64,000 bases of DNA. Origin: a virus (taxonomy: Duplodnaviria > Caudoviricetes). A program made the translations under genes and the position numbers. The notes beneath the pieces are model-generated. The model saw only the letters and a list, made by a program, of their open reading frames with translations, was not told the origin of the DNA and made no database searches. The stretch lies in the IMG/VR virus record IMGVR_UViG_3300036971_000130; one strand, given 5' to 3'. This document shows, piece after piece, positions 18,777 to 46,362 of the stretch (the stretch's first letter is position 1; each line of letters starts with the position of its first letter).

Positions 18777-18798
18777 AACCTATCAGCCGGGGGTGACA
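18777..18798 (-). promoter_or_regulatory. PafBC/RecA-NDp-like promoter
   Basis: TGTCAC-ccccggctga-TAGGTT upstream of the AAA ATPase. Confidence 0.5.
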
Positions 18799-19664
18799 CT
18801 CCCAAGCGGCTCGCCGTAATTGTCGAACTCGGGCATCTCTCCGTAGCGGTGGAGAGGGAAGCTGTCACCGTCACGCTTCTTACGCCAGACCGTCGGGATA
18901 CTCACCTCGGTGAATCCGTGCTTGGTCATGGTCCCACGGCGCTTGGGGGACGGTGTAATCCATCTCACCGAATCGCCGTCATCGTCCTTGACGCACCACT
19001 TCGATCCGTACTGCGTCGACACCATCCGGATGTCATCTCGGACCTGCCCAGTTTCGAGATCGACGAGGTAGGTCTTGTCGTAGCTGAAGTACCTGTCGTC
19101 GGATTCGATGATCCCCAGCGAGCATTCCTCGCAGGTGCAGCCACCGAGGTACTTCGTCGGGTGGCCGTGAGGTGCAACGAACGCACAGTCCTCGCAGGTG
19201 CAGCCGTACTCCAACCGAGAAAGCGTTCCGTGTTCACCGTACTCAGCGGTGATCGCTGCTTCACGAGCTTCCGTCTCGGCGTCCCACTTCCTCCGACGGG
19301 CTTCAGCTTCGTCGAGTCGACGGGCGGCACGCCAGTCTCGCCAGTGCCGAGCGAGTTCCTCCCTGTTCATTCCGACTCGCTCGGCGCAGTCGGACCCGAT
19401 GTCATGGACCGTTCCCGTCTTCGTGTCCTCGACGACGTAGCAGTTGATGATGGCGGTGCCACAGTTCGCACAGGTACCGCCCGGTTGGACCGGAGCGTCA
19501 GGGGCAGCCTGGAACACCTTGCGGGTGAAGCCCTTGATCTTGCACTGCGACAGCCAAGGGAGCGTCGACCCGAGGTCGACATCGGACTTCGAGTGCTCGA
19601 CCGTCCCGAACTGGCCGTCGTTGCCAGCCTCTCCGGTGTGCTTCTTGCGGATCTTCTCGCTCAC
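18783..19664 (-). CDS. Cys-rich zinc-binding hypothetical protein with N-terminal GQF tag
   Basis: GTG overlaps the upstream TAG; CANC, IGSDC and two HG....(L/Y)..GCTCE.C motifs. Confidence 0.75.
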   Translation of the reverse strand: MSEKIRKKHTGEAGNDGQFGTVEHSKSDVDLGSTLPWLSQCKIKGFTRKVFQAAPDAPVQPGGTCANCGTAIINCYVVEDTKTGTVHDIGSDCAERVGMNREELARHWRDWRAARRLDEAEARRRKWDAETEAREAAITAEYGEHGTLSRLEYGCTCEDCAFVAPHGHPTKYLGGCTCEECSLGIIESDDRYFSYDKTYLVDLETGQVRDDIRMVSTQYGSKWCVKDDDGDSVRWITPSPKRRGTMTKHGFTEVSIPTVWRKKRDGDSFPLHRYGEMPEFDNYGEPLGSVTPG

Positions 19665-20524
19665 TACGACCTCGTCACGCTGTCGATGCCGTCGAAGAAC
19701 ATCTTGGCGAACCAGCGAACAGGTCGGAGAGACGACCTGAAGGCCCGCTCCTTCCACATGTCTCGGCGGTTCTGCTTGGCCTGCTTCTCAGCTTCGATGT
19801 TCCGCTCCCGGAACGCCCGGTCCTGGTCCACTAGCTTCTGCTCGTTCACCTGGTGGCGTTCGAGGTGCCGCTGCATCGCTTCGACAGCGTTCGAGTCGAT
19901 GTAGGGGTCGCCGTAGTCGTCGACGCTCGTGACGATGTACCCGCTCCATCCAGCGGCCCTGGCCTTGTTGTGGAGGTCGATGATGCCGGGGAGGTTCCGG
20001 GCTGGGACCATCTGCGACTTCCGAGGCGAGTCGATCAACTGGTCCGGGTTGTTGTCCTCGATGTGGTGAAGGGACCGGATGATGTAGTCCCGGTTCTCGT
20101 CACCTCGGTCGTAGAAGTCGTCGTCAGCGAGAGGTCGGACCGGGAACCCGTCCTCAGGCTCGACCAGCGGAGCCCTCTGCTCCATGTCGGCCAGCAGTGC
20201 TTCTCTCGCTCGGTCCGCCCGAGCCCAGTCGGGTTCGTTCGGGTAGTCGTCTGCGGTGATGTCGCTGACACCATCCCAGAGGTCTCCTTCTGGTGCGGAG
20301 CGATCCAGCCACTCCCCGAACTCGGGGTCGTCCATGAGGATGTCGTCGTAGTTGTCGTCGTCGTCGTCGGTGAGGTCGCTGGTGAGGTCGAGTTCGGGTC
20401 CTCGACCGAAGTCCGTCCTGTCGAACCGGCCACGGTCTCGGTTCTGGCTGTGGCTGTGATGAGCGTCGCCGTGATGGCGGCTACCATCCTGCGGAGGTCG
20501 GAACGAGGGGGAGAATCCAGGCAT
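19664..20524 (-). CDS. Acidic hypothetical protein with N-terminal tag
   Basis: Leaderless CCAATAGTT-N5-ATG; RDRGRFDRTDFGRGPELDL. Confidence 0.75.
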   Translation of the reverse strand: MPGFSPSFRPPQDGSRHHGDAHHSHSQNRDRGRFDRTDFGRGPELDLTSDLTDDDDDNYDDILMDDPEFGEWLDRSAPEGDLWDGVSDITADDYPNEPDWARADRAREALLADMEQRAPLVEPEDGFPVRPLADDDFYDRGDENRDYIIRSLHHIEDNNPDQLIDSPRKSQMVPARNLPGIIDLHNKARAAGWSGYIVTSVDDYGDPYIDSNAVEAMQRHLERHQVNEQKLVDQDRAFRERNIEAEKQAKQNRRDMWKERAFRSSLRPVRWFAKMFFDGIDSVTRS

Positions 20525-20529
20525 ACTCC

Positions 20530-20538
20530 AACTATTGG
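20530..20538 (-). promoter_or_regulatory. CCAATAGTT leaderless promoter motif (copy 1)
   Basis: Identical at 33619-33627 and 46368-46376, always 5 nt before an ATG. Confidence 0.7.
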
Positions 20539-20607
20539 CGGCTGGCTGGTCAACCCGCCACCCATGATGATCTGGAAGTACTCACCCGAATAGGACATTC
20601 CACCCAA

Positions 20608-21078
20608 ATGCTCAACCGCATGAAAACCGAGACACACGAAGAAATCTCCCGTCGATGGTTCCCCGAGGGAACGTTCGTTCGGTCGGATGGTGGCGTCTTC
20701 TTCAGCCCTGTCGTCGGTGGCCGTTGGGAGGTCCACCTGAATGATGGGACCTACATCCTCTACGACAGCGTGGGACGCTTCTCGACAGCCCCGTGCCCCA
20801 TCTCAGGCATCTACCCGATCGTCTCGAAGCTCGAAGCTCGGATGGTCCACTGCTCCGGTCTGAACCTCGAAGACTACGACCTCGCTGTCCTGCCGTCGGG
20901 GGTTATCGACCTCAACATCGAGATGGTGAACGGCAACGTCGATCTCCTGGCGATGGTCTCGAAGCATGACAGGTCGGTCGAGACCATCGGTCTGTTCGGT
21001 ACCTACCAGGGGGCGGTCTCACTCGCCAGCCTCGTCGGCTACAGTCGAGACGACTGGGAAGGCGTCCTCGTATCGTGA
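20608..21078 (+). CDS. Hypothetical protein
   Basis: GC3-biased ORF downstream of ACCCATGAT (20560-20568). Confidence 0.65.
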   Translation: MLNRMKTETHEEISRRWFPEGTFVRSDGGVFFSPVVGGRWEVHLNDGTYILYDSVGRFSTAPCPISGIYPIVSKLEARMVHCSGLNLEDYDLAVLPSGVIDLNIEMVNGNVDLLAMVSKHDRSVETIGLFGTYQGAVSLASLVGYSRDDWEGVLVS

Positions 21079-21371
21079 GCGACAACGAAGTGGAAGTCGA
21101 AGCGAGCCAAGCCGATCTCGAAACGATGCTGGTGCAGAACCGGCCGTTGAGGATCGAGGCGATCGACAGATCAACCATGTTCGTTGTCGGCTCCGAGCCG
21201 AACTCGTCCCACTGCTACCGAGAGGTCGACGGCCAGGTTGTCTGGTCCGCCAACATCAGCGGACGAGATCACAGCAGGCAGTTGGCTGCGTTGTTCGACG
21301 TGTTCACGTCCCGGCCTGTCGTGTTCTGGTCCTTCGACCCGTCGAGGACTTTTTCCTTCGGACGACCCTGA
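21075..21371 (+). CDS. Hypothetical protein
   Basis: GTGA overlap with the upstream gene. Confidence 0.6.
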   Translation: MSDNEVEVEASQADLETMLVQNRPLRIEAIDRSTMFVVGSEPNSSHCYREVDGQVVWSANISGRDHSRQLAALFDVFTSRPVVFWSFDPSRTFSFGRP

Positions 21372-21384
21372 TCCTCCACGTCGT

Positions 21385-21406
21385 TGTCAGCCCCCTCCGG
21401 TAAGGT
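21385..21406 (+). promoter_or_regulatory. PafBC/RecA-NDp-like promoter
   Basis: TGTCAG-ccccctccgg-TAAGGT. Confidence 0.6.
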
Positions 21407-21440
21407 GGCGGCAACAACTACGGATGAGGGGATCATCACC

Positions 21441-21572
21441 ATGAGAGAGCGTTGCTCTGTCTTTTTCAACACCAAGATCATGTACGAGTACCACCCGGTG
21501 ATCGTGCGCCAACGTCGTCGGGCCCGTCTGGCTGCGGCGGCGATGATCGCTTCCAAGTCAACGAGCGTGTAG
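21441..21572 (+). CDS. Small basic protein (43 aa)
   Basis: GAGGGG RBS before ATG, directly below the TGTCAG promoter. Confidence 0.4.
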   Translation: MRERCSVFFNTKIMYEYHPVIVRQRRRARLAAAAMIASKSTSV

Positions 21573-22357: not shown

Positions 22358-22876
22358 TCAGTGGTCAAGCCAATCGGGAACCATCTCACTCGGCCCCCAA
22401 CCGATGAAGGAAGGCTCGTTCTGAACGTCCCACCATTCGAGAGCGTCGTACGGGGTGAAGACCCGGTCCGGCTCACCGACCTTGGATGGGAACGGAACCG
22501 GGTACGCCCGCATCCGACGCTTGTCTTCTTCGGTGAGAATGTCCTCGTGACGAAGCATCATCTCGCATCGAGCAAGCATCCGGGCTTCCTCGGAGATGAT
22601 GTTGTCCGGACCACCGAGGCGTGCGGTGACCACGTCGATCACGTCGTCGGGAACATCGACCGTGGTCCAGAACCCGACGTATTCCTCCACCGACCGGAAG
22701 TGGGGAGGGTAGACGAAACTCCCCTTCTCGACCGGCATCCGGAGGTTGTCCATCGGCTCGTGGTAGTTGGCGGTGAACTGACCGCCCTGGGGTGTTCCTG
22801 CCGCCAGACGGGCACGTCGAGCGCCAGGGGTCGTCGCCTCCCGGACGAACCGGGCAAACTTCTGTCCAAAGTTCAC
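22358..22876 (-). CDS. Hypothetical protein with N-terminal GGQF tag
   Basis: RLAAGTPQGGQFTANYHEPMDNL; GTGA coupling to the upstream gene. Confidence 0.7.
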   Translation of the reverse strand: MNFGQKFARFVREATTPGARRARLAAGTPQGGQFTANYHEPMDNLRMPVEKGSFVYPPHFRSVEEYVGFWTTVDVPDDVIDVVTARLGGPDNIISEEARMLARCEMMLRHEDILTEEDKRRMRAYPVPFPSKVGEPDRVFTPYDALEWWDVQNEPSFIGWGPSEMVPDWLDH

Positions 22877-24703: not shown

Positions 24704-27700
24704 TCAGCTTCCTGTCGTTGACCAGTGCCAAGACTCGCTCGGCAGGTTCTTCAGTCCGTACTTGGCTGCGTTCTGAGCCAGCCACTTGTAGCAGGCGGTT
24801 GCCCGAGTCGAGCAGTTCGCCCAGTCGATCGCAAGACCCTTCTGGTGCTGGGACTGTCCCGGCTTGGCAGTCGGGGGACGGCACGAACCGGACGGCATCT
24901 CGTAGATGGCGTACTGGGACGTACCGCAGTGCTTCTTGCGGAGTTCGATCTGGAGGGTGACGGACCGGTAGGAGTTACCGACAGCCATCGGCACACCGTC
25001 AGCGGCAGCGTCAGCGATCAACTGGTTGATGATCGGCACCATCTGGCAGTTCGTCTCTGCGTTGCCGATCGGGCAGACAGCGACCGGAGCACCAGAGTCG
25101 ATGTTCACGATCATCCCGTCGCCTCCACCGCTCACCGAGCAGTCGGTCGCCGGAGTGGCGGGGAGCCCGGTTGCGAGCCCCTTCAGGAACTCGGCATACA
25201 CCTTGTAGCCCTCAACGGTGTAGTGGATGCCGTCATCGGCCCGCTTGCCCTCCATCGAGGTCTTCGCAGCGGCGTCCCAGTCGGCCACCTTCAGGTTCGG
25301 GTAGGTGCTCGTCGCTTCGGTCAGGGCGGCGTTGACCCCGTCCTTGGCGGCACCGAGCTTCGTGGAGCCGGTGTCGACGTTCACCCACTGGACCTGCTTG
25401 GTCGTGCCGACCATGTCCATGACCGACTTGATCTTGGCGGCGAAGTCTTCCTTCGTGCTCGTGTAGTCGTTCGTGCCGAGAGCGATGATGATGGCGTCGG
25501 AGTTCGGAGCTTCCTTCGTCACGATCTCCGGGGCCTCCGAAGTCGGACGACCGACCTTGGCGTCGACCGTCCACTCGCTCGGCAGCCCGGCGGTCTTCGC
25601 TCCATCGGTGAGAGAGTCACCGATGAGAAGGACTCGGGCGGGAGTTGCAGGGGTGCCTGCGACCGTCGTGGTCGTGGCCTCACCGCCAGTCGTCGTTGCA
25701 CCGGCGGCAGTCGTGGTGGTAGCTCCTGCGGCCGTCGTCGTGGTAGCCCCGGACCCGGACGTGTCACTCGGAGTGCCGTTCGGGAGAGGACTGCTGTCGG
25801 AGTCGATGATGGGGAACCAGCCGACAGGGGTCGACTGGGTCACGCCGTAGGTGGCGTTGCTCTCCTTGATGGTGGCGAGGATCGCCGCAGCATCCGGGAT
25901 GGCCTCGGCGTACTTCCCAGGGTAGGCGGAGACCTGAACGTCCTGAGCGGCAACACCCGGCTCCATCGCCTCCCAACCAGCGTGATCGAGAAGACCAGGA
26001 GGGTTGCCCTTGTTCGGTCCGGTCGGACCACCGTAGAACGCCCTCGACGAGTAGATGGCGTCACCGACCTGCTCCTTGGTGCCCCATCCAGATGCGGGAC
26101 GCTGCTGGAACAGACCAACCGAGTCGTGGTCGACAGCGACCTGACCGTTCAGGAGGTTGAGTTCGACGATGGCCGTCGCCAGAGCGATGATCTGTCCACG
26201 CTCGGGGACACCCATCGACTTGCCGACATCGACGATAAGGACGGCGTTCGCCCAACGCTGCTGGGTCAGCGGGATGTTGTGCCCCTTGTAGGCGAGGATG
26301 TCACCGATCTTCAGCGGACCGCTCGTGGGAAGCGGGATGCCGGAGACACCGCTCTGCGAACCCGAACCACACGCTGGGGTCTGGTTCATCCATGCGAGCG
26401 CCGTGTTGTAGATGGTTCCGGCAACGATGTCGGAGTTCTGTCCGTCCGAGAGGCCCTTCAGTGGGAGAGCCTTGATGACGGCGAGCCAGCCCTCCTTCTC
26501 CATCTCGAAGGAACCATCGGGGCCGAACTTCTGCTCGACCTTGATGGCGTTGATCTGGCGTGCGACGTAGACCGTCGAGTCGTACGGCTTCTGGACATCG
26601 ACCTCAGCCTTGTCGCTGATCGCCTTCTGTTCCTCGACGTATGTGTTCCAAGCTTCTTCTTCGACCAGCATCATCCCGTACCACGGACCACCCTGGACCT
26701 TGATGTCCTGCTGGGTGGTGGTGGTCACCGGAGCGGTCGTCGTGGTTGCGACCGTCGTGGTCGTGTCACCTCGAACCGTGATCGGAGTTTCCGTCGTCGA
26801 CGTTGCACCTTCAGCGGTGGTGGTCGTCGTCATCGACTCCGAAGCGACGTTGGTCGGGGCCATGTTCGAGATCGGCGTGTCATCCACGATCGGCGGGTCG
26901 GTGATCGGGAAGACATCGCCGTCGTGGGGGACTTCGGTGGTCGTGGTTGCGCCTTCGGGCTCGACGAACTCCACGGTCGTTGCCGTGGCGAGAGGGTGAT
27001 CCTTCTCGTAGTCGTCGGGGTTGTAGTCGTTGGCGTAGTCCTCCATCATCTTGCCGTCGGCGTCGTACGGCCAGATGCGGACCTTGCCGTCTGGGGCAGC
27101 CATTCCGTGGTTGGTCTCGTACCGTCCGATGGCGGCGAGGATCTGCCACTGGACATCGTTGTCGTTGCCGATCTGCTGGTACATCATCAGAGCGGAACCG
27201 GGCGTTCCATCACGCATGGCGTACTGTCCGGAAGCAACGTCGTTCTGCGACATCGACATCGACATGCCGCTCACGCTGATCAGGACCATGACCAGCAGGA
27301 GCCCGACCATGAGTAGCGGAGACAGGAGAGCGAGAGCGGGCTTGATGAACTCCTTCAGGCCCTTCTTCGCCGCACCTCCGATGCCGTCCTTCTTCATCGA
27401 CTTGGCGAACTTCTTGCCGCCCTTGATGCCGGAGGCAACCAGGCGAGCGGGCGGTGGGGCAGCCTTCGAAACGGCGTCGAGGCCCTTGTCTGCGGCAGCT
27501 TCAGCGCCACCCTTCTTCGCTGCACCGGCAGCGGCACCGGCTGCACCTGCGGCAGCGGCCTTGCCTCCCGACTTCCCGCCCTTCTTGTCCTTGCCTGAGC
27601 GGTCGGGCGTCTCAACGCCCTTCTTGTCGTCCTTCTTGTCCTTGCCGATGCTGGTGAGCGCACTCGTGCCCTTGGCTGAGTCCTTCTTGTCGTCGGAGGA

Positions 27701-28102
27701 CTCGCCGGACTTCTTCCCCTTCTTCCCGCTGCCGGTGGCGGAGACCTCGGCCTCCCCTCCACCTTCGGCTCCGGTCTCGTTGCCGTGCTCAGGAGGGTTC
27801 TCGTCGCTGTGGTCACCACTGTCGCTGTCGTCGTCGGCTTCGACACCACGAAGTGCGGCGCTCTTGCGCTCACGTTCCTTGGCCGTCATCGTGCGACCAC
27901 GACCGGACTTCGACCAGTCACGGGACGGACCACGACGGGGGACAGCCGGGGTTTCCGGTTCGGGAGTTGGCTCCGGGGTCTGATCCTCGGAGGTCTTCTC
28001 CGGTGTCCGGTCCTCGGGCTTCTCGACAGGATCGCCCGAAGGCTGAGGACGATCCTGGTCCTCAGCCTTCTGGTCTTCTGGCTTCTCGTTCATCTCACTC
28101 AT
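24704..28102 (-). CDS. Multi-domain conjugative cell-wall hydrolase (lysozyme-like x2, SGNH, M15/VanY-type peptidase)
   Basis: Start MSEMNEK at 28102 (ATGA overlap); TM; WQILAAIGRYETNHG; ALATAIVE..DSVGLFQQR..GWG; IGDSLT/LGTND/DGIHY; PGQSQHQKGLAID..ESWHW. Confidence 0.85.
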   Translation of the reverse strand: MSEMNEKPEDQKAEDQDRPQPSGDPVEKPEDRTPEKTSEDQTPEPTPEPETPAVPRRGPSRDWSKSGRGRTMTAKERERKSAALRGVEADDDSDSGDHSDENPPEHGNETGAEGGGEAEVSATGSGKKGKKSGESSDDKKDSAKGTSALTSIGKDKKDDKKGVETPDRSGKDKKGGKSGGKAAAAGAAGAAAGAAKKGGAEAAADKGLDAVSKAAPPPARLVASGIKGGKKFAKSMKKDGIGGAAKKGLKEFIKPALALLSPLLMVGLLLVMVLISVSGMSMSMSQNDVASGQYAMRDGTPGSALMMYQQIGNDNDVQWQILAAIGRYETNHGMAAPDGKVRIWPYDADGKMMEDYANDYNPDDYEKDHPLATATTVEFVEPEGATTTTEVPHDGDVFPITDPPIVDDTPISNMAPTNVASESMTTTTTAEGATSTTETPITVRGDTTTTVATTTTAPVTTTTQQDIKVQGGPWYGMMLVEEEAWNTYVEEQKAISDKAEVDVQKPYDSTVYVARQINAIKVEQKFGPDGSFEMEKEGWLAVIKALPLKGLSDGQNSDIVAGTIYNTALAWMNQTPACGSGSQSGVSGIPLPTSGPLKIGDILAYKGHNIPLTQQRWANAVLIVDVGKSMGVPERGQIIALATAIVELNLLNGQVAVDHDSVGLFQQRPASGWGTKEQVGDAIYSSRAFYGGPTGPNKGNPPGLLDHAGWEAMEPGVAAQDVQVSAYPGKYAEAIPDAAAILATIKESNATYGVTQSTPVGWFPIIDSDSSPLPNGTPSDTSGSGATTTTAAGATTTTAAGATTTGGEATTTTVAGTPATPARVLLIGDSLTDGAKTAGLPSEWTVDAKVGRPTSEAPEIVTKEAPNSDAIIIALGTNDYTSTKEDFAAKIKSVMDMVGTTKQVQWVNVDTGSTKLGAAKDGVNAALTEATSTYPNLKVADWDAAAKTSMEGKRADDGIHYTVEGYKVYAEFLKGLATGLPATPATDCSVSGGGDGMIVNIDSGAPVAVCPIGNAETNCQMVPIINQLIADAAADGVPMAVGNSYRSVTLQIELRKKHCGTSQYAIYEMPSGSCRPPTAKPGQSQHQKGLAIDWANCSTRATACYKWLAQNAAKYGLKNLPSESWHWSTTGS

Positions 28103-30909
28103 GGCGTGGTACCTCCACCGGAACCGCCCCCGCCGGAACCTCCGGAACCACCAGTGCCGCCAGAGCCGCCGCCACCAGCGGGACGGCCACCGCCACCATG
28201 ACGACCGCCACCACCGTGATGACGGCCACCACCGTGATGACGGCGACCGTTCGAGCCAGCACCGCCGCCACCACCAGCCGGGCGAGGACGGTGATGCGGT
28301 CGAGGCGTGCCACCACCGCCGCCAGCGGGGTTGTTGCCGGGGTTGTTGTTGTTCCCATGGTTCCGAGCGTAGCTGTCCACGGCAGTGCGCTGGTGATCCA
28401 TGAAGTACCTGGACGTGGTCCTCTGGTCGCCATCGGGGTTCCGACGACGTTCCATCATGTTGCGTCGAGCACGGTTCAGGGACCGAGCACCGGCAGCCGC
28501 AGCCACCGGAACAGCGATCGGAGCAGCGAACGCCGAAGCGCCGAACGCAAGGCCAGCACCAGCGAGGATGGCACCTCGGGTAGCCATGCGCTTCATGCCG
28601 CCGCCCTTCTTCCAGTTCGACAGGCCGTTCTTCGCTGCGCCACCGAGAGCGCCGAGGCCGTACTTGGCACCAGCCCAAGCCTGACCGATGCCAGGTGCGC
28701 TCCGGACCTTGTTATAGAACCCGGACATGAACTTCGTGTTCGAAAGCTGACCCGCACGATGCGTCGAGAACGGAGCCCGGAGGTTCGCCAGAGCGCCGTG
28801 CTTCTGACGAGCAGGCTTCGCAGCCGCAGCACCAGCAGCAGCAGCACCAGCGGCAGCACCGGCAGCGGCGGATGCACCAGCGGCCTTCCGCTTGTTCCTG
28901 ACCGCAGTGTTCTTGCCGTAGGAACGACGATCGAGACGACGATCGACGGCCCGACGGGCGGAACTCGTACCACGACGAGCGAGACGATCGACACCGGCGA
29001 CGGTGGCTCCGCCAGCAGCACCAGCCAGAGCACCGTAAGCCATGGCCGACGACGGCGAGAACGGCGACGGCATGCCCATGGCATCCTTCATAATCTTCTG
29101 AAGGATGATGATGGCGGTGATCGGAGCGAAGCCCATCCACAGGAGTTGCAGGAAGGAGCCAGGCCCGAAGGACTCAATGCCGATCTGGTTCAGGAACCCG
29201 GTCACGATCGTGACGAGGCCGAGGATCAGCATGAGGCCAGACGAGTAGATCGTCATGCCGAGCAGGAACTTCACGAACTTGGCAAGCTTCGAGTCCCCGC
29301 CCCCGGACCCGAACAAGGCGAAGACGAGCATCGGGAAGATCATCACGATCATCACGACCGAGACCGTCTTGGCGATGATGACACCACCAGCGATGAGACC
29401 GAAGACGATCATAATGAACAGGGCCGAGATCACGTAGATGAAGGCGACCGCCATCGAGTTGGCGTAGGCGTCACCGTGCCAGGTCATCAGGAAGTCACGG
29501 GCGCTCGACGATTCCTTGGTGTTGTCGTTGATGTAGCCGGACGAGTCGGTCCACTCGAATCGGGTGTCCTCGGCGTTCCAGTCGTCCCAGACGCTCTCGC
29601 AGGATTCGGCCCACGAAGTTCCGTCCTCGCCTCGGGTGACCTCGGGCCAGGAATCCTTGCCTCCACCTTCGGCGGACTCGTCCGAGGTCGGCTCACCCTT
29701 GACGTTCACGGTCGTGAAGTTGCCCTTGGAGTCGAGAGCACAGCTAGCCCACCAGATGCCAGCCTGGTCCCTCGTCTTGTTGTTGCCGCCGGTGAACAGT
29801 TCCGTCGACGGGATCTGAGACTCGAACTTGTTGAACACCATCGTCGAAGCAGCGATGCGGTCACGCTCACGGGTGGCGTCGAAGCCTGCACCCTTCGCCT
29901 TGTTCTTGTAGCCAGCGATGTACTTGGCGTCGACCAGCTTGTACCCGGCGTTGCGATCGAGCAGGCGGCAGTAGACACGCTCGCCGTAGTTGTTCTTGGT
30001 GCCGAACTGGACCCGGATGTAGGAGGACAGGCCAGACTGCTCCCACATCGACGAGATGACGAGAGGCAGCGAGGCAGCGTCCGGGTTGCGGACGTTGTTG
30101 GTGTAGCGGGCACGCAGGTTCGCCACGTACATCCGGCACGAGAGCGGATCGTTGGCAGAACTGTTCCCGGAGGTTCCGTAGGCACCCGGACCAGGCATCT
30201 GGTTCACCAAGGCGTTCGTCGGCATCGACGCCACCGAGGTGACGATGTTCTCCGTCTTCTGGGCGAACCAGGCGGGCGAACCACCTGCCACCTTGTTCGT
30301 CTGGTTCGTCTGGATGGCACCGTTCATCAGGACGATGAAGACGGTCAGCGTCATCACGGTCTGGACGAGCTTCTTCTTCGGGTTCTCGGCGGTCTTGTTC
30401 GCCTTCCAGAGAGCGCCGATGATGGCGCACGCAGCGGCGAAGGAGACGAGCCCGGAGTCCAGCATGGCGTTGCCGAGGGACGCCGACACCCGGTCGGCCG
30501 CACAGCCGCCGGAGTCGAGCAACGTGTAGTCGGAGGCGAACATGATGAAGCCACCGGCGACGGACCAGAACGTGTCACCCCAGGTCAGGGAGACCGACTG
30601 GATGAAGCTTCGGTTCAGCTTCTTGTCGATGTCGTCGGTGACGCCAGCGCCAAGACGGGAGTGAAGCTGGGACGTGGAGCCAGCCCAGCGGGTCAGCGGC
30701 AGGTACTTCTCGGCCTTGACCTTGCTGTCGGTCTCGTCGCTGAGAGTGGCGTCTTCCGCCTGGACATCGTCGAATCGACGGCATTCGCCGTTGGCCGACG
30801 CCTGGGCGGCAACGGCGTCAGGGGTCTGGGCATGGGCCGCACCGGAGAACGCCCCGAACAGCATCACGGCCGTGAACATCACGACCAGGATCTTGGAGAT
30901 GAGCTTCAC
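28099..30909 (-). CDS. VirB6-like polytopic conjugation membrane protein
   Basis: Signal peptide, multiple TM blocks, basic Gly/Ala/His-rich tail; lies between PrgI-like and hydrolase genes. Confidence 0.7.
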   Translation of the reverse strand: MKLISKILVVMFTAVMLFGAFSGAAHAQTPDAVAAQASANGECRRFDDVQAEDATLSDETDSKVKAEKYLPLTRWAGSTSQLHSRLGAGVTDDIDKKLNRSFIQSVSLTWGDTFWSVAGGFIMFASDYTLLDSGGCAADRVSASLGNAMLDSGLVSFAAACAIIGALWKANKTAENPKKKLVQTVMTLTVFIVLMNGAIQTNQTNKVAGGSPAWFAQKTENIVTSVASMPTNALVNQMPGPGAYGTSGNSSANDPLSCRMYVANLRARYTNNVRNPDAASLPLVISSMWEQSGLSSYIRVQFGTKNNYGERVYCRLLDRNAGYKLVDAKYIAGYKNKAKGAGFDATRERDRIAASTMVFNKFESQIPSTELFTGGNNKTRDQAGIWWASCALDSKGNFTTVNVKGEPTSDESAEGGGKDSWPEVTRGEDGTSWAESCESVWDDWNAEDTRFEWTDSSGYINDNTKESSSARDFLMTWHGDAYANSMAVAFIYVISALFIMIVFGLIAGGVIIAKTVSVVMIVMIFPMLVFALFGSGGGDSKLAKFVKFLLGMTIYSSGLMLILGLVTIVTGFLNQIGIESFGPGSFLQLLWMGFAPITAIIILQKIMKDAMGMPSPFSPSSAMAYGALAGAAGGATVAGVDRLARRGTSSARRAVDRRLDRRSYGKNTAVRNKRKAAGASAAAGAAAGAAAAGAAAAKPARQKHGALANLRAPFSTHRAGQLSNTKFMSGFYNKVRSAPGIGQAWAGAKYGLGALGGAAKNGLSNWKKGGGMKRMATRGAILAGAGLAFGASAFAAPIAVPVAAAAGARSLNRARRNMMERRRNPDGDQRTTSRYFMDHQRTAVDSYARNHGNNNNPGNNPAGGGGGTPRPHHRPRPAGGGGGAGSNGRRHHGGGRHHGGGGRHGGGGRPAGGGGSGGTGGSGGSGGGGSGGGTTP

Positions 30910-31322
30910 TGGCGGCTGCTCCGAACGTAGTAGGGGACGGTCCCGTTGACGGGGACCGACGACCGAGAGATGACGTAGTACCGGCAGAAGATCGGCTCGA
31001 CAGGCTGACCTGCGACGACCCAGGTTCCGACGTTCGACTTCTTCTTGGTCCTGATGTGATCCCAGAGAGGAAGCCGGAGACCTGACTGGACTCGGTAGTT
31101 GATGAAGAAGAAGAAGATCCCGATGACCAGCGGGATGCAGAGGATGGAGTTGATCCCGAAGAACGGGAAGGCCAACAGCGTGACGAACACACCAGGGAGG
31201 AACCCTGCGATGCAGATGATGAAGGTCTTCTGCTGGATCTCGAACCCAGAGATCGTGACACGACGAGACTCGTTGAGGTCTCGGGTCAGGTGGGTGAGGG
31301 TGAATACCTCGTAGTCGCTCAT
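30906..31322 (-). CDS. PrgI/VirB3-like membrane protein
   Basis: Two TMs, ~138 aa, AGGAGG RBS before MSDYEV; operon position. Confidence 0.55.
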   Translation of the reverse strand: MSDYEVFTLTHLTRDLNESRRVTISGFEIQQKTFIICIAGFLPGVFVTLLAFPFFGINSILCIPLVIGIFFFFINYRVQSGLRLPLWDHIRTKKKSNVGTWVVAGQPVEPIFCRYYVISRSSVPVNGTVPYYVRSSRQ

Positions 31323-31397
31323 CTTTTCCTCCTGGTCAGACGAGAAGGGCGACACCCGGAGGTGTCGCCCTTCGATGTGGTGGGCTGCGGACGACGC

Positions 31398-31736
31398 CTA
31401 CGAAGCGTTCTTCGAGATGATCTTGGCGAGGGCGTTGGCGAGAAGGTCGATGATCGTGAGGATGTTCGGGATGATCAGACCCGGAGCCGACAGGATCGCA
31501 CCGATGAGGATGGCGTAGCCGATGTTCGATCCGCTACCACCACCACCGCCGCCACCGCCGGACTTGCGCTTGTCCCACAGCATCTTGACGACAGCGAAGA
31601 CGACGATCAGCATGCCGACGACGTTCATCAGGGTGGTGATGCCACCCAACGTCCCCGAGATCGTCTCCCAGAAGTCCTTCCAGCCTCCTGCGAGGTTCAC
31701 GGTATCGCCGGTTGCTCCGAAGATGGTGCTCAACAT
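31398..31736 (-). CDS. VirB2/TrbC-like pilin
   Basis: 112 aa, two hydrophobic helices joined by a poly-Gly loop; first gene of the transfer operon; AGGAGG RBS. Confidence 0.6.
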   Translation of the reverse strand: MLSTIFGATGDTVNLAGGWKDFWETISGTLGGITTLMNVVGMLIVVFAVVKMLWDKRKSGGGGGGGGSGSNIGYAILIGAILSAPGLIIPNILTIIDLLANALAKIISKNAS

Positions 31737-31803: not shown

Positions 31804-32247
31804 TCAGGATGCCCGGACGAGCATCTCCATCTCCCGAACTTCGGGATCGCTGAGAATCCTCTCCCGCTGCTCATTGGAGAGCGGGAAGCGGAGAAGATGA
31901 CGAAGAACGATCGGGGACGAATCGCCAGCGAGCAGGTCGTTGATCTTCGGATCGCCACGATCGGCAAGCTCGAAACGGACCATCGGAGACGGGTCGTCGA
32001 CAAGGCGACGGGCCTGCTCGTCCGACAGGACGGGGTTCGTTGCAGCGGTCGCCCGAACGTGCTCGCTCGGGTGGTTGACGAACTCGTCGAGCGACTGGCT
32101 GTCGTTGCAGTTGAACGCAGCCTCGATCGCCTCGTCGTCGAGGGCGACCGGGTCACGGCTGATCTTCGGGTCGCCGCCGGTCCCGTACTGGGAAGGACCG
32201 AACGTGCCGTTGCCGAAGCGGATCTGGCTGGTGTTGTCGTTGCTCAT
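31804..32247 (-). CDS. LRV/HEAT-like repeat protein with N-terminal tag
   Basis: Start MSNDNT; repeats HPSEHVRATAATNP, DDPSPMVRFELA, DSSPIVLRHL. Confidence 0.7.
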   Translation of the reverse strand: MSNDNTSQIRFGNGTFGPSQYGTGGDPKISRDPVALDDEAIEAAFNCNDSQSLDEFVNHPSEHVRATAATNPVLSDEQARRLVDDPSPMVRFELADRGDPKINDLLAGDSSPIVLRHLLRFPLSNEQRERILSDPEVREMEMLVRAS

Positions 32248-32257
32248 CTCAGGTACC

Positions 32258-33613
32258 TCACGCCGAGACCTTCGTCCGGGTTCGAGGGGCGGTTGCAGCG
32301 AGGATCGCCGCATCCCAGGTTTCGTCCTCACGTCCGGGAACGAACATGATGGTCTGCATGATCTTGCGCTGGTCCTCGTAGGTCCCAGCGTCACTGAACG
32401 GGGCGAACAGCGCCCGGACCGTCCGGTCGCTTGCCGTCTCGTCGCTCCACTGACGCCACGCCTCCGCTACTCCACCGACATCAGCGATTGCCTTGCGGTG
32501 AGCGGTTGCACTGGTCGTCGAGAACTGCTCGTCACCGGACTTGACCTGGCTTGCGCCGGTCTCACGACGGAGGATCGACCAGAGTTGACGCTTGATCATG
32601 CTCTTGTCGCCACCAGCGAGAGCCTCGGCAGCGCCATGGTCGAAGGTGCTGAAGGTCGTTCCGGCCTCCATCGGAGAACTGGAACCGGTGAAGCTCGGGG
32701 CGGCGATGTCGATGCCGGGGCTGTCCTCGTCACCGCCAGCGTCGAGGGACAGCGTCCCACGCTTGATCTGCTGGATCGAGTGGAAGCCGATCGTCGGACG
32801 GCGGGTTGCAGCGAAGCCCATCCGGATCTCATCCGCGATCTCGTCACGGCGGGCTGCCGAGACAGGACCACGACGGCCTTCTTCTTCGACTCGCTCGGAC
32901 CACATGCGGTAGGCGTTGCGGTTCACCGACTGATCGGTGCCCGTGATGGCCTGACGAGCGACGTTGTCGACGATCGTGTTGATGTTCGGAGCGGCAGAGG
33001 TGAGGATGCCTCCCGGAGCGATGACACCTTCGTCATCGACCAGGCGGCTCTCGCCGTCCACCATCCGGCGACCGTTGGCTCCACGGACACGCTCGACGAA
33101 GCGAGACTGGGTGTTGCGCCAGGTCGTCAGGAACTCGCTGGTGGCAGCGTTCACGAGGTCTTCGTGGCTGTCGAAGTGCTGTGCGAGGGAGTCACGGGAC
33201 CGCTTGAAGTTGAGACCTGCACGGAGGTTCAGCGTCTTCAGGACGACCGCCTCGTCGTAGGAGCCGACGCCGTAGGCATCGAGGATCTCCTGGTCGGTAG
33301 CGGTCTCCGGGTCGATCGTGGCGAGTTCGTTCGAGCGGTCGGGAACGAACTTCTCGCCCTTGGCTTCAGCGGCACGCCGAGCACGGCGCTCACGCATTCG
33401 GGCGAGACGATCCTCAGGGATGACGACTTCCTCGAACACGGGAGCAGGAACAGGAGGGTTGTCCTCCTGCCACTCGGAGATGTCCGCTCGGATGTTGCGC
33501 TCGAACATGGCGTCGATGTCGACCAGGTCAGTGGTAGCACCGAACCCACGATCGCGAACGGAGAACTCTCCGACAACGTTCCGAGGGTGGCGTGCTTCAT
33601 CCCAGGTCTTCAT
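32258..33613 (-). CDS. Hypothetical protein with WDEARHPR..GEF tag, possible sigma-like core
   Basis: Leaderless CCAATAGTT-N5-ATG at MKTWDEARHPR; HEDLVNAA..F and TLSLDAGGDEDS resemble sigma regions 2 and 3. Confidence 0.7.
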   Translation of the reverse strand: MKTWDEARHPRNVVGEFSVRDRGFGATTDLVDIDAMFERNIRADISEWQEDNPPVPAPVFEEVVIPEDRLARMRERRARRAAEAKGEKFVPDRSNELATIDPETATDQEILDAYGVGSYDEAVVLKTLNLRAGLNFKRSRDSLAQHFDSHEDLVNAATSEFLTTWRNTQSRFVERVRGANGRRMVDGESRLVDDEGVIAPGGILTSAAPNINTIVDNVARQAITGTDQSVNRNAYRMWSERVEEEGRRGPVSAARRDEIADEIRMGFAATRRPTIGFHSIQQIKRGTLSLDAGGDEDSPGIDIAAPSFTGSSSPMEAGTTFSTFDHGAAEALAGGDKSMIKRQLWSILRRETGASQVKSGDEQFSTTSATAHRKAIADVGGVAEAWRQWSDETASDRTVRALFAPFSDAGTYEDQRKIMQTIMFVPGREDETWDAAILAATAPRTRTKVSA

Positions 33614-33618: not shown

Positions 33619-33627
33619 AACTATTGG
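33619..33627 (-). promoter_or_regulatory. CCAATAGTT leaderless promoter motif (copy 2)
   Basis: Exact 9-mer 5 nt before ATG. Confidence 0.7.
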
Positions 33628-43551: not shown

Positions 43552-43589
43552 GTCTGTGGTGATTTACGAGGAATCTCCGAAAGATTTTC

Positions 43590-44300
43590 TCAGAACCAGT
43601 TGCCGCCGAAGGCACCGACATCGAACAGCCGCCAGGTCACGAAGCCGATGGCGAGCAGCAGGAGCGGGGAGACGATCGAGTTCTCGACGAACCCGCCGGA
43701 CTTGAACAGGCCAGCGGAGAACTTCGTCTTCGTGAACGGGGCCAGCCAGGAGATACCTGCGGGCGTCGGTGTGTCACCCAGCAGGTGCGTGAAGTAGGGG
43801 ACGGGGATCGCTGCGTAGAGCCACCAGTCGGGCTGGAACCCCTTGGTGGCGGCGAGCCAGGCGACGAAGATGCCGACAGGGATGGCGATGGCAGCAGCCA
43901 CCTTCTCGTACTTCTCGGGGAGGATCGCTGCGGTACAGAACGGCCATCCGAGGGCGATCGTGAGGCCGAGGGTGGCACCGAGTTCCCAGCCGGGACCGAA
44001 GACGTTGATGAGCGCCCACACCCAGGCGGTCAGGAGCGGAATGATGACGAGCGGCCAGTGGGTGCGGGTCCGGTGAGCGCCGGTGAAGATCCGCATGAAG
44101 GAACCGAGCGGTCCAGCGACCTGCGACGCCTTCGAGTGCTTCTCGTCGATGTCCGCTGCGAGAGCGGCACCTGCGGCCACGACCGCCCCGGCAACGATCA
44201 CCGATGGCAGCGGGAGGTTCAGGTCCCAACGGGAGTGAGCGAGGACGAGAGCGCCACCGTAGGCAGCGACACCGGACATGGCGTGGTTGAGGCCGTTCAT
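43590..44300 (-). CDS. YdjM-like membrane metal-dependent hydrolase
   Basis: MNGLNH, ADID, HRTRTH, THLLGD..T..G; multiple TMs; CATGAT-N7-ATG start. Confidence 0.85.
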   Translation of the reverse strand: MNGLNHAMSGVAAYGGALVLAHSRWDLNLPLPSVIVAGAVVAAGAALAADIDEKHSKASQVAGPLGSFMRIFTGAHRTRTHWPLVIIPLLTAWVWALINVFGPGWELGATLGLTIALGWPFCTAAILPEKYEKVAAAIAIPVGIFVAWLAATKGFQPDWWLYAAIPVPYFTHLLGDTPTPAGISWLAPFTKTKFSAGLFKSGGFVENSIVSPLLLLAIGFVTWRLFDVGAFGGNWF

Positions 44301-44353
44301 GGTCACCATCATGGGTCGGGAAGCGGACGAAATCGTACCCCATCGTGTGACAT

Positions 44354-44806
44354 GTGTGTACACTCCCCTTCGTGGAAAAATGGGATGTCAGATACCGAGC
44401 CCTGATCGAGTACGTGGAGCGTGAGGGCCTGATCCCGTCCGCCCGCCGAGATCAGCGGATGGGCTCATGGGTGGCCGAGCAGAAGCGACGGCTCCGGAAG
44501 GGGATCATGCCCACCGAGCAGCGTGAGCTTCTCGAAGCCATCGACGGTTGGTACTGGGACAACGAGGATCTCCATGCCAGGGCTGGGTACAGTTCGCTCT
44601 GGAAGCGCAACTACGACAACCTGCTCACCTACATGGCCGAGAACAGCCGGTACCCTTCGCAGTTGAATGCGGATCGCTCGATCAGCAAGCTCGGCTCCTG
44701 GGTGTCCAGGCAGCGTCAGACGTACCGTGGGGACAAGAAGTCACGCCCCCTCACGGCTCGACAGATCGAGATGCTCGAACGCCTCCCCCAGTGGAACTGG
44801 GGTTAG
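44354..44806 (+). CDS. Stand-alone helicase-associated (HA) repeat protein
   Basis: Two W...Y..L..Y......P.....(M/L)GSWV..Q(K/R) units. Confidence 0.8.
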   Translation: MCTLPFVEKWDVRYRALIEYVEREGLIPSARRDQRMGSWVAEQKRRLRKGIMPTEQRELLEAIDGWYWDNEDLHARAGYSSLWKRNYDNLLTYMAENSRYPSQLNADRSISKLGSWVSRQRQTYRGDKKSRPLTARQIEMLERLPQWNWG

Positions 44807-46362
44807 CGCCGGTACCCGAGGATGTTCTCCAAGGCGATCGCACGACCTTCGGCGTTGGCGTCGTAGGTCTGGCTGCTTCGGTCCACGTCGTAGCCAGGCC
44901 GGATCGGGTTGTAGAGCAGGTCGCTCGGTTCCCTCTTGTCAGCGATCGCTTCAGCGGCGCTGACGTACCCGGCGACGTAGGCGGAGAGTTCAGATCCGGT
45001 CTTGTCGGTCGGCGGGATCGTGGTGCCTGCGAGAGCAGGGTGCGTCGAATGGGTCTCGGCCTTCCACCTGTCCGGGTGGTTGGTGGCGAGCGCCACGGGG
45101 CCAGAGGGTCGGGTGTACGGCTTGTTGGCTGTCCGGGCCTGGTGTGATCCGGCGATCGCCCTCGTCATCTGATCGACCGCTTCGACCGTCTTGCGTCGAG
45201 GGTTGTACGGGGACAGTGTCCTGACCGAAGCCGAGATCCTCTTGTTCGTGTCGAGCAGGACATCGAAAGCTTCGTCGTAGCTGCTCGTGGCGAGAGCCGG
45301 GTCCCTGATGATCTCGTCAGCGAAGCCGCCGAATCCCGCTCCCCACTTCCGGATGGTCCTGTGGGGGATGCCGGTCTCGCCGTGGATGTGGGCGACATCC
45401 TCGGGGCTGAGAGGGGTGCCGAGGTAGTAGCTCCCGTCCGAGAACGAACGCCCCTCCACGATGGTCGACCCGTACACGCCTTCGGGGGCGTGGTCAGCGA
45501 ACAGGACGGCGATGGCCGTTCGACGACTCAGGTACACGGTGAGGTTGGGGTCCGACTCGGTCTCGAAGGTCTCGGAGGAAACGAGGCCACGGAGACCAGC
45601 GTCCGAGATGAGAGGTGGCACGGTGTCGAAGTGGTCTTCCAGGAGAGCGATGCGCTGGTTCCGACCGACGAGGTGTACCCTTTCCAGAATGCTGCCAGGC
45701 ATCGGCGTTCCCGTGCCTTCCCTGCTGATCGCTCTGACGAGATCCGATGCGACATCGTCGTTCGGTGAGATGCCGTACTCCCTGGCCTGGTCAGCGAGAC
45801 GGGGGTTCGCCCCGAGTTCCTTCCAGCGAAGCGCCTCACCCAGTGGGTACCCGGAGTCGGTCCACTTCCGTTCCTCGGTGACCGGAATCCCGGCCATGAG
45901 CCATTCGAGGGACCGGTCGCATTCGGACGTGATGAGTTCGCTGTCACGCCACCCGTCGGGGAACACCGCTTCCTCGTAGGAGATGAGCAGGTCGTCCTCC
46001 CCCATCAGGCCATCCTCGGTCGAGTAGCCAGACCAGACGACCTGACCGTCGGCATCGAGAACGTAGGCCAGGTGGTCCGCTCCGTCGGGAACGTGATCGC
46101 CGTAGTCGAATGGCCTCGTCGAGATCGTGAGGGACGAGACCCAAACCGCTTCCTCCGGGTCGAAGTGGGACGGCGAGACCAGGTCGTAGACGTTGGCCTC
46201 GGTGTCGGAGTCGAAGACCGCCCCATCGAGTTCGTTCAGCCGCTCATCACGGATGGTCGAAACAGACGAGAGGTCGATGTCCGCCCCGAAGTTGTGGACG
46301 AAGCTGGTCCACCTGCCGAGACGATCACGGGGGCCGGAGCCAGGGGGCATTGTTGAGGTCAT
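44803..46362 (-). CDS. Hypothetical protein with N-terminal tag
   Basis: Leaderless CCAATAGTT-N5-ATG; PRDRLGRWTSFVHNFGADIDL. Confidence 0.75.
   Translation of the reverse strand: MTSTMPPGSGPRDRLGRWTSFVHNFGADIDLSSVSTIRDERLNELDGAVFDSDTEANVYDLVSPSHFDPEEAVWVSSLTISTRPFDYGDHVPDGADHLAYVLDADGQVVWSGYSTEDGLMGEDDLLISYEEAVFPDGWRDSELITSECDRSLEWLMAGIPVTEERKWTDSGYPLGEALRWKELGANPRLADQAREYGISPNDDVASDLVRAISREGTGTPMPGSILERVHLVGRNQRIALLEDHFDTVPPLISDAGLRGLVSSETFETESDPNLTVYLSRRTAIAVLFADHAPEGVYGSTIVEGRSFSDGSYYLGTPLSPEDVAHIHGETGIPHRTIRKWGAGFGGFADEIIRDPALATSSYDEAFDVLLDTNKRISASVRTLSPYNPRRKTVEAVDQMTRAIAGSHQARTANKPYTRPSGPVALATNHPDRWKAETHSTHPALAGTTIPPTDKTGSELSAYVAGYVSAAEAIADKREPSDLLYNPIRPGYDVDRSSQTYDANAEGRAIALENILGYRR

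What the first reader, a model, noticed from the sequence alone, without database searches (positions are those of the whole stretch)
18783..46362. Six unrelated proteins share an N-terminal ~20-aa tag: candidate cargo/translocation signal
Seen in the sequence: 20524 RDR-GRFDRTDFGRGPELDL; 32247 RFGNGTFGPSQYGTGGDPKI; 33613 HPRNVVGEFSVRDRGFGATTDL; 46362 PRDRLGRWTSFVHNFGADIDL; 19664 AGNDGQFGTVEHSKSDVDL; 22876 GTPQGGQFTANYHEPMDNL. Four align as G-x-[FW]-x5-[GN]-x-G-x3-[DK]-[LI], and two are GQF-x4-H variants. The bodies after the tag are unrelated (zinc-finger, acidic, LRV repeat, sigma-like). None has a Sec or Tat signal. Inference: a modular address label that recruits diverse cargo to one partner, for example delivery to recipient cells through this element's T4SS or loading into a particle. 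HPR..G.F motifs are familiar from phage head-associated proteins.
Basis: partly seen in the sequence, partly recalled or inferred. Interest (0 to 1): 0.9.

Follow-up and report, generated by a model that had tools for sequence, protein, structure and literature searches.

The report
Shared N-terminal tag on megaplasmid proteins
Six unrelated soluble proteins of this uncultured actinobacterial conjugative element begin with a local, very diverged version of an undescribed floppy peptide; that peptide heads about a tenth of the proteins of related giant plasmids and also marks head-cargo proteins of a phage, so it is probably a label for proteins handled together with mobile DNA, but what reads it is unknown.

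Summary
The bodies are unrelated and none has a hydrophobic signal.

Inside the window alone the similarity is statistically weak. Outside evidence makes it real:
- Orthologues of three of the six on Pseudarthrobacter plasmid pACHL01 begin with a sharp motif, RQPKGIPxGGQFAATxHxEPxVSL.
- The same motif heads about 50 proteins of pACHL01 and 37 of pYJN5-1.
- It matches 2,821 protein clusters in a 1.84-billion-protein library, nearly always at residues 2-8.
- The P0005 tag is 55-59% identical to tags on a Curtobacterium plasmid.
- P0001, P0003 and P0004 also share an exact 9-base box, 5 nt before their ATG.

The HPR..G.F and GGQF..H forms are one motif. Its core also occurs in a phage head module: five times at module boundaries of a polyvalent protein, and in the portal tail.

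The function is not shown. My best guess (about 0.4) is a docking label for proteins that travel with, or are handled alongside, the mobile DNA. A signal specific to this element's transfer machine (T4SS) is less likely, about 0.2. No partner was found. I found no description of the tag in print, but earlier notes of this scan report it on other DNA.

The parts
19664..20524 (-). P0001, a 286-aa acidic protein (22% D/E). The tag NRDRGRFDRTDFGRGPELDL is at residues 28-47 (nt 20384-20443).
18783..19664 (-). P0005, a 293-aa Cys-rich (zinc-ribbon-like) protein that starts at a GTG overlapping the P0001 stop. The tag RKKHTGEAGNDGQFGTVEHSKSDVDL is at residues 6-31 (nt 19572-19649).
   Evidence: 55-59% identity to pCPAA3 tags
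22358..22876 (-). P0006, 172 aa, translationally coupled to the upstream gene. The tag RRARLAAGTPQGGQFTANYHEPMDNL is at residues 20-45 (nt 22742-22819).
31804..32247 (-). P0002, a 147-aa protein with LRV/HEAT-like repeats. The putative tag RFGNGTFGPSQYGTGGDPKI is at residues 10-29 (nt 32161-32220). This is the weakest member.
32258..33613 (-). P0003 (= P0007), 451 aa, first gene of the T4SS channel operon. The tag RHPRNVVGEFSVRDRGFGATTDL is at residues 8-30 (nt 33524-33592).
44803..46362 (-). P0004, 519 aa, no known family. The tag GPRDRLGRWTSFVHNFGADIDL is at residues 10-31 (nt 46270-46335).
20530..20538 (-). Box CCAATAGTT, 5 nt before the ATG of P0001. AATAGT sits at -12..-7 from the A of the ATG, which would fit a leaderless-type promoter.
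33619..33627 (-). The same box, 5 nt before the ATG of P0003. It supports M11 of the long ORF as the start.
46368..46376 (-). The same box, 5 nt before the ATG of P0004.
24704..31736 (-). Context. Mating-channel genes downstream of P0003/P0002 and upstream of P0006: two small membrane proteins, a 936-aa protein (called VirB6-like here by position only; it has no Pfam family) and a GDSL+VanY wall hydrolase. The order is syntenic with pACHL01.
54942..62844 (+). Context. DUF3854 protein, TcpC-like protein and a VirB4-like ATPase (AAA_10) that carries an intein-like (Hint) insert.
17572..18684 (-). Context. A midasin/MoxR-class AAA+ ATPase directly downstream of P0001 and P0005. It was considered as part of a tag reader, together with the DUF2201 protein at 2093-3364.

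Best explanation
The six N-termini are a local, strongly diverged dialect of one widespread, uncatalogued, disordered peptide tag.

Sharpest form (Micrococcaceae plasmids): R-Q-P-K-G-I-P-x-G-G-Q-F-A-A-T-x-H-x-E-P-x-V-x-L. The generic core is [HQ]-P-[RK]-x3-4-G-[QRE]-[FW], followed 8-11 residues later by an acidic residue and then Leu. HPRxxxGxF is the same core without the extra Gly-Pro.

Shown:
- The tag sits at the very start of dozens of unrelated soluble proteins on actinobacterial conjugative megaplasmids.
- It is kept in orthologues and is selected at the protein level.
- The genes carrying it share element-specific upstream boxes.
- The core also stands in the portal tail and in front of the modules of head-module cargo proteins of a phage.

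Inferred: the tag is a short linear docking motif. It lets one common partner handle a whole set of element-encoded helper or effector proteins, most likely so that they accompany the mobile DNA into a new cell. In plasmids this would be at or near the mating channel; in phages, inside the head next to the portal.

The reader of the tag is unknown. It may be a component shared by, or analogous between, both routes, or a host protein.
For: (1) Synteny and orthology. The pACHL01 and pYJN5-1 orthologues of P0003, P0002 and P0006 all begin with NRxPxGxxxGGQFAxxxHxEPxxxL, in the same gene order around the channel genes.

(2) Scale. A tag profile hits 50 places on pACHL01 and 37 on pYJN5-1. In the three stretches of pACHL01 whose annotation I fetched, nearly all hits lie at annotated CDS starts; two lie just upstream of the called start. 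Fifty-nine tagged bodies fall into 40 unrelated clusters.

(3) Spread. One exact sub-pattern finds 54 loci. They come from Arthrobacter, Sinomonas, Cellulomonas, Actinotalea, Oerskovia, Isoptericola, Brevibacterium, Nostocoides, Nakamurella and Acidimicrobiaceae. These hold 123 tags, often several per 4 kb. A full HMMER scan gives 2,821 cluster representatives at E<=1e-3, and 140 of the best 150 matches start at residues 2-8.

(4) One motif. Bridging forms exist: 'EHPRGAGGRFVPAVRAEPGTTL' on pYJN5-1 and 'NRHPRGIPAGGQFAAG' in Nostocoides. The P0005 dialect recurs on Curtobacterium pCPAA3.

(5) Protein-level selection. The invariant Pro and Gly use up to four codons. The three window genes share only the upstream box at DNA level.

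(6) Phage link. On contig L151 the core QPRxPxGxPxGGQ[FW] occurs in the portal C-terminal tail, a 247-aa protein, a Zeta-toxin protein (3 copies) and a 1,965-aa ART+NUDIX polyvalent protein (5 copies). It does not occur in the terminase, MuF, protease or tail-tube proteins, or in the other head- and tail-module proteins scanned.

(7) Context. In the window the tagged genes head or sit inside the operons that hold the channel genes. Tagged bodies elsewhere include a Fic enzyme. P0001 is very acidic.
Against: - No partner was identified.
- Known conjugative and T4SS protein signals are C-terminal or internal (my own knowledge), so an N-terminal one has no precedent.
- A 131-kb Pseudarthrobacter plasmid carries many tags, yet no VirB4-like or VirB6-like gene was found in its genome.
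- In the phage the core is internal and repeated, and it also sits on the portal itself. That fits a processing site or a self-associating sticker as well as it fits an address label.
- An earlier check in this scan (e1-2628465) found the core more often internal than N-terminal across the phylum.
- For four of the six window peptides an independent profile gives no significant score.
Confidence: 0.4

Rival explanations
1. Narrow form of the reader's idea. The tag is the translocation signal of this element's own Gram-positive-type T4SS. It would be read by its coupling protein or VirB4, so that the six proteins are injected into recipients.
For: Tagged genes are interleaved with the channel genes, and P0003 heads that operon. 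A VirB4-like gene and a homologue of the 936-aa channel protein are present in four of the five other tag-bearing records or genomes tested, besides the window itself. Many tagged bodies look like effectors or helpers, for example a Fic enzyme and acidic proteins.
Against: The same core works in a phage head module that has no T4SS. One tag-rich plasmid lies in a genome where no VirB4-like or VirB6-like gene was found. No coupling protein lies in the window or in the 10 kb to its right. Known T4SS signals are not N-terminal (my own knowledge).
Confidence: 0.2
2. The motif is a processing or maturation site. A protease would recognise it, release the modules of polyvalent proteins and trim the portal tail. 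On solo plasmid proteins it would be a short pro-peptide or a leftover of that origin.
For: The core stands at the five module boundaries of P0027 and in the portal C-tail, next to an S78-family prohead protease gene. Iyer et al. 2017 predict that polyvalent proteins are cut into units (PMC5512222). The elements encode metallopeptidase-like proteins.
Against: On the plasmids only 2-8 residues precede the tag, so cutting there would release nothing. The second half of the tag (H-x-E-P-x3-L) is conserved only on solo proteins. No S78 protease or MuF was seen on the plasmids.
Confidence: 0.15
3. The tag docks its bearers onto a hub inside the carrying cell and has nothing to do with transfer. The hub could be a chaperone or AAA+ remodeller (such as the midasin-like ATPase with its VWA/MIDAS partner), a protease that times their removal, or a host machine that they all manipulate.
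For: A well-conserved midasin-class AAA+ (41-44% identity between distant elements) and a DUF2201 protein with an intact MIDAS motif (DESGS) occur on four tag-bearing elements. The AAA+ gene lies next to tagged genes in the window and in Arthrobacter sp. H14. The tag has a near-invariant acidic residue. A host-encoded reader would explain tags on a plasmid without a T4SS and in a phage.
Against: pCPAA3 and the Pseudarthrobacter sp. P1 genome have tags but no such AAA+ or DUF2201 gene. Fifty-six metagenome loci with the AAA+ (389 kb) hold no tag. DUF2201 is a common chromosomal family.
Confidence: 0.2
4. There is no common function in this window. The six similarities would be chance or over-reading, or a by-product of shared translation-start or mRNA features.
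For: Within-window statistics are weak. Only one of the six matches an independent profile. P0002 fits poorly.
Against: Orthologues carry the tag. The P0005 tag recurs at 55-59% identity on another plasmid. The DNA of the three box genes is alike only in the box. Codons vary at invariant residues.
Confidence: 0.05

Closest known systems
Polyvalent proteins of phages and conjugative elements, and their solo-domain versions (Iyer, Burroughs, Anand, de Souza, Aravind 2017, PMC5512222)
   Same: Both are sets of unrelated enzymatic or helper modules of mobile elements, proposed to be delivered with the DNA. The tag core stands before the modules of one such phage protein with ART and NUDIX domains.
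   Different: The six are single-body proteins, not multidomain fusions. The paper does not mention this motif or any shared linker.
N-terminal capsid-targeting signals of phage internal proteins (T4 internal proteins; N-terminus of P1 DarB). Cited from my own knowledge.
   Same: A short N-terminal peptide on unrelated cargo directs them to the place from which they leave with the DNA.
   Different: Those signals act in capsid assembly and, in T4, are cut off by the prohead protease. Here the bearers sit on a conjugative plasmid with no capsid genes in view, and the sequence is unrelated.
T4SS substrate signals: Arg-rich C-terminal tails of VirE2/VirF, the Glu-rich E-block of Dot/Icm substrates, and the XVIPCD domain of Xanthomonas T4SS toxins. 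Cited from my own knowledge.
   Same: One recognisable element is shared by many unrelated substrates of one DNA/protein transfer machine.
   Different: Those signals are C-terminal (or are folded domains), occur in Gram-negative systems and are read by a VirD4-type coupling protein. Here the tag is N-terminal and disordered, in Actinomycetota, and no coupling protein was identified.
KxYKxGKxW and YSIRK-type motifs in Gram-positive signal peptides. Cited from my own knowledge.
   Same: A conserved N-terminal sequence motif is shared by different exported proteins.
   Different: Those motifs are part of Sec signal peptides with a hydrophobic core. The six proteins have none.

Membership tests
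Actinobacterial megaplasmid N-terminal tag (uncatalogued; defined here from pACHL01/pYJN5-1 and 54 genome loci) | Lies within about the first 50 residues of a soluble protein | tested here: met
   The tags lie at residues 6-47 of the six proteins. No hydrophobic segment is present.
Actinobacterial megaplasmid N-terminal tag (uncatalogued; defined here from pACHL01/pYJN5-1 and 54 genome loci) | Significant match to a profile built without the window's own sequences | tested here: inconclusive
   Only P0006 passes (E 1.5e-3 and 6.7e-5). P0005 scores E 6.7. The other four are not found. The P0005 tag does match pCPAA3 tags at 55-59% identity.
Actinobacterial megaplasmid N-terminal tag (uncatalogued; defined here from pACHL01/pYJN5-1 and 54 genome loci) | Orthologues in other elements carry the tag | tested here: met
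   Met for P0003, P0002 and P0006. No orthologue was found for P0004 in the five records or genomes searched, and P0005 matched them only through its tag; P0001 was not searched.
Actinobacterial megaplasmid N-terminal tag (uncatalogued; defined here from pACHL01/pYJN5-1 and 54 genome loci) | Bodies behind the tag are unrelated to each other | tested here: met
   No BLASTP hit below E 0.2 among the six. The 59 bodies from the Pseudarthrobacter/Paenarthrobacter (and a few Curtobacterium) plasmid loci fall into 40 clusters.
T4SS translocation signal | C-terminal or internal signal read by a VirD4-type coupling protein | tested here: not met
   The tag is N-terminal. No coupling protein lies in the window or in the 10 kb to its right. 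Whether the T4SS reads the tag cannot be tested with these tools.
Sec or Tat signal peptide | Hydrophobic core after a basic N-region; twin-arginine consensus for Tat | tested here: not met
   The maximum 15-residue hydropathy in the first 75 aa is 0.73 or less. No S/T-R-R-x-F-L-K is present.
Polyvalent proteins (Iyer et al. 2017) | Two to fifteen unrelated domains in one polypeptide | tested here: not met
   Each of the six has one body and no Pfam domain over its curated cut-off. They resemble the 'solo' versions only through the shared motif.
Phage capsid-targeting signal | The element encodes a capsid, portal and prohead protease that use the signal | tested here: not met
   No such Pfam family was found among the window proteins scanned. 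No MuF was found on three related plasmids. The criterion is met only on the phage contig L151.
Sigma-70 family (body of P0003) | Recognisable sigma regions 2 and 4 | tested here: not met
   No Pfam, NCBIfam or PDB-sequence hit was found, even with a three-sequence profile at E<=5.

The most novel reading that the evidence does not exclude
Actinobacterial conjugative megaplasmids would use an N-terminal disordered peptide as a general protein-delivery signal. Dozens of unrelated proteins per plasmid (six seen in this window) would be sent into the recipient together with the DNA. Phages would use the same peptide to load and eject head cargo. That would make it one address code shared by the two great routes of DNA invasion.
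Probability: 0.15. Interest if true: 0.9.

Novelty: new variant of a known kind. Interest (0 to 1): 0.7.

Why it matters
If the tag is an address label, it defines by sequence alone a very large set of proteins that mobile elements hand over or handle together. That set is 2,821 clusters at 50% identity, and most of the members checked against Pfam had no family. It would also give a first handle on protein transfer by Gram-positive-type conjugation systems, for which no substrate signal is known to me. It would link plasmid 'solo' effectors to phage polyvalent cargo mechanistically. One host, Pseudarthrobacter chlorophenolicus A6 with pACHL01, is cultured, so the question can be tested directly. 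For this window the tag also flags six orphan proteins as candidates for establishment or anti-defence roles, and the shared box points to element-specific co-regulation.

Tried and rejected
- Co-fold of the DUF2201 VWA/metallopeptidase protein (60-row alignment, with Mg and Zn) against the tag (56-row alignment): no verdict, scores 0.02 and 0.11 against a mark of 0.32. This is not evidence either way.
- The MoxR-like/DUF2201 pair as an obligatory reader: rejected. Tags exist without it, it exists widely without tags, and no MuF is on the plasmids.
- A plasmid-borne SecYEG as the route: SecY was found only on pACHL01 and pYJN5-1, and the tags lack a hydrophobic core.
- Close homologues of P0003 and P0006 in the 5.8-billion-protein index: only the proteins themselves were found. 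P0004 has no relative in five related records.
- Megablast of 20 kb against plasmids: no match.
- tblastn of a 31-aa HPR-type tag against phages: only E of about 4 hits to excise genes, which is uninformative.
- A metagenome scan with the single AAA+ protein found nothing. The scan with an alignment found 56 loci, none with tags.
A2 was also too diverse for a pattern scan.
- Literature searches for the motif strings and for N-terminal T4SS signals in Actinobacteria found nothing relevant.
- A sigma-70 consensus scan finds no canonical promoter at two of the three boxes, those before P0003 and P0004; the box before P0001 lay outside the stretch scanned.
- An RNA-level explanation of the tag was rejected.

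Full report
**What the window is.** The window has 63% G+C and no close DNA relative among plasmid records. Its proteins are known only from metagenome assemblies. Most genes run on the minus strand from 6393 to about 54800.

Pfam places it among Gram-positive-type conjugative elements. The window encodes:
- a TcpC-like protein, and a VirB4-like AAA_10 ATPase with a Hint (intein-like) insert;
- a DUF3854 protein;
- a GDSL+VanY wall hydrolase;
- a 936-aa protein that I call VirB6-like from its position only;
- a 3,489-aa adhesin with 21 SdrD-B repeats;
- its own DnaE (with an intein), an SSB, an HNH nuclease and a PD-(D/E)XK nuclease;
- a J-domain protein and a ParA-like ATPase;
- a DUF2201 VWA/metallopeptidase-like protein and a midasin/MoxR-class AAA+.

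The nearest named relatives are giant plasmids of Micrococcales: pACHL01 of Pseudarthrobacter chlorophenolicus A6, pYJN5-1 of Paenarthrobacter and pCPAA3 of Curtobacterium. They share the gene order around the channel genes.

**The observation.** The starts can be fixed as follows:
- P0003 starts at the ATG at 33613, which is the JGI call of 451 aa.
- P0002 starts at 32247.
- P0005 starts at a GTG that overlaps the P0001 stop.
- P0006 starts at a GTG that overlaps the stop of the gene before it.

Unbiased tests inside the window are weak. Among 903 pairs of N-termini, only the trio P0001/P0003/P0004 stands out, and only modestly. The bodies are unrelated, and no protein has a hydrophobic signal.

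**Why it is nevertheless real.** On pACHL01 and pYJN5-1 the syntenic orthologues of P0003, P0002 and P0006 all begin with NRxPxGxxxGGQFAxxxHxEPxxxL. The P0006 alignment runs straight through the tag.

A profile of twelve tags then found 50 places on pACHL01 and 37 on pYJN5-1. In the three stretches of pACHL01 whose annotation I fetched, nearly all of the hits lie at an annotated CDS start; two lie just upstream of the called start. The consensus is TARQPKGIPxGGQFAATxHxEPxVSL. The bodies are diverse, 59 in 40 clusters, and most have no Pfam family; one is a Fic enzyme.

The HPR form and the GGQF form are the same thing. pYJN5-1 has 'EHPRGAGGRFVPAVRAEPGTTL' and Nostocoides has 'NRHPRGIPAGGQFAAG'.

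The P0005 peptide is 55-59% identical to the N-termini of at least three pCPAA3 proteins ('RKSHTGEAGNKGEFGTHTRSEAEVTLGG'). pCPAA3 also has a second dialect, 'GRGHxPAGTPGGGQF'.

Invariant residues use several codons, so selection acts on the peptide.

**How widespread it is.** One exact sub-pattern found 54 loci in ten genera of Actinomycetes and in Acidimicrobiaceae. Together they hold 123 tags, often several per 4 kb. A full HMMER scan of 1.84 billion representatives, using 56 allowed tags, gave 2,821 proteins at E<=1e-3. In 140 of the best 150 the match begins at residues 2-8.

**A second, independent link among three of the six.** The 9-mer CCAATAGTT occurs exactly three times in the window, with no one-mismatch copies. 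Each copy lies 5 nt before the ATG of P0001, P0003 or P0004. Beyond the box the three DNAs are not alike. AATAGT then lies at -12..-7 from the A of the ATG, which would suit a leaderless-type promoter; no canonical sigma-70 site is there.

The three boxed genes head the three gene runs that contain the other tagged genes, the channel genes and the AAA+. Many tagged genes of pACHL01 have their own box, GCCG[TC]ACACA, about 8 nt before the ATG.

**The phage link.** One of the best hits, P0027, is not N-terminal. It is a 1,965-aa protein with ART and NUDIX domains and five internal copies of QPRxPxGxPxGGQW. Its contig is a phage head module, in the order terminase, portal, MuF, Zeta-toxin protein, P0027, S78 protease.

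On that contig the core also occurs in the portal C-terminal tail, in a 247-aa protein and three times in the Zeta-toxin protein. It does not occur in the terminase, MuF, protease or tail-tube proteins, or in the other proteins of the head and tail modules that I scanned. Iyer et al. 2017 do not mention the motif.

**Who reads it.** Presence and absence across the other elements tested:

| Element | Tags | VirB4-like and VirB6-like genes | AAA+ and DUF2201 |
|---|---|---|---|
| pACHL01 | yes | found | found |
| pYJN5-1 | yes | found | found |
| Actinotalea MAG | yes | found | found |
| Curtobacterium pCPAA3 | yes | found | not found |
| Pseudarthrobacter sp. P1 (tags on a 131-kb plasmid) | yes | not found | not found |

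. The window itself has all of these.

Further points:
- The AAA+ family is common without tags: 56 loci, 389 kb, no tag.
- DUF2201 is a common chromosomal family.
- MuF is absent from the plasmids.
- SecY is plasmid-borne only on two of them.

No element-encoded family therefore tracks the tag strictly. Together with the phage case, this leaves a host-encoded or route-independent reader as a serious option. One co-fold job gave no verdict (see tried and rejected).

**Verdict.** The tag is real, conserved and very widespread, and I found no description of it in the open literature that I could search. The six window peptides are members of it in a diverged dialect; P0002 is the least certain. 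The function is inferred, not shown.

My ranking of the explanations:
- a docking label for proteins that travel with, or are handled alongside, the mobile DNA: about 0.4, of which a strictly T4SS-read signal is about 0.2;
- a hub-docking or stability motif inside the carrying cell: about 0.2;
- a processing site: about 0.15;
- chance or artefact: about 0.05.

Earlier notes of this scan describe the same tag on other DNA and likewise found no partner.

Noticed in passing
window 20530-20538, 33619-33627, 46368-46376 (minus strand): An exact CCAATAGTT box (extended form CCRCCAATAGTT) lies 5 nt before the ATG of three operon-leading tagged genes. It looks like an element-specific promoter for leaderless messages, and no canonical sigma-70 site is there.
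   Followed up: partly
L036/L037 (pACHL01 199000-230000 and 5000-52000): Many tagged genes of pACHL01 carry their own box, GCCG[TC]ACACA, about 8 nt before the ATG. This suggests that each element has a private regulon for its tagged genes.
   Followed up: partly
L151 4403-15898 (phage contig from a Logan assembly): The tag core occurs in the C-terminal tail of a Mu-type portal, in the next 247-aa protein, three times in a Zeta-toxin protein and five times in a polyvalent ART+NUDIX protein. It is absent from MuF, the terminase and the protease.
   Followed up: partly
L037 6239-7837 and 45167-45445 (pACHL01): The megaplasmid carries its own secG, secY and secE genes, embedded among arrays of tagged genes. 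SecY is also on pYJN5-1 but not on pCPAA3.
   Followed up: partly
window 33647-38653 and 59188-62844: The element's DnaE holds an intein, and its VirB4-like ATPase has a weaker Hint-domain hit that suggests one too.
   Followed up: no
window 6393-16862 (minus strand): A 3,489-aa surface protein with 21 SdrD-B/prealbumin-like repeats lies downstream of the AAA+ and GDSL genes. It is possibly the mating adhesin.
   Followed up: no
window 2093-5769 and 17572-18684; L093; L094: A module is conserved on three tag-bearing elements: a midasin-class AAA+, a DUF2201 protein (HExxH plus an intact MIDAS motif, DESGS), a 377-aa protein and an SF1 helicase-like ATPase.
   Followed up: partly
window 19664-20524: P0001 is 22% Asp/Glu with long acidic runs. 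This recalls DNA-mimic antirestriction proteins, but it was not tested.
   Followed up: no
L092 13669-23657 (right of the window): Beyond the right edge the element continues with a class II ribonucleotide reductase, a DinG-like helicase and an SNF2 helicase. No tag was found there.
   Followed up: partly
window 43590-44363; L036 27925-28803: A YdjM-type membrane hydrolase gene lies next to a tagged gene both in the window (beside P0004) and on pACHL01.
   Followed up: no
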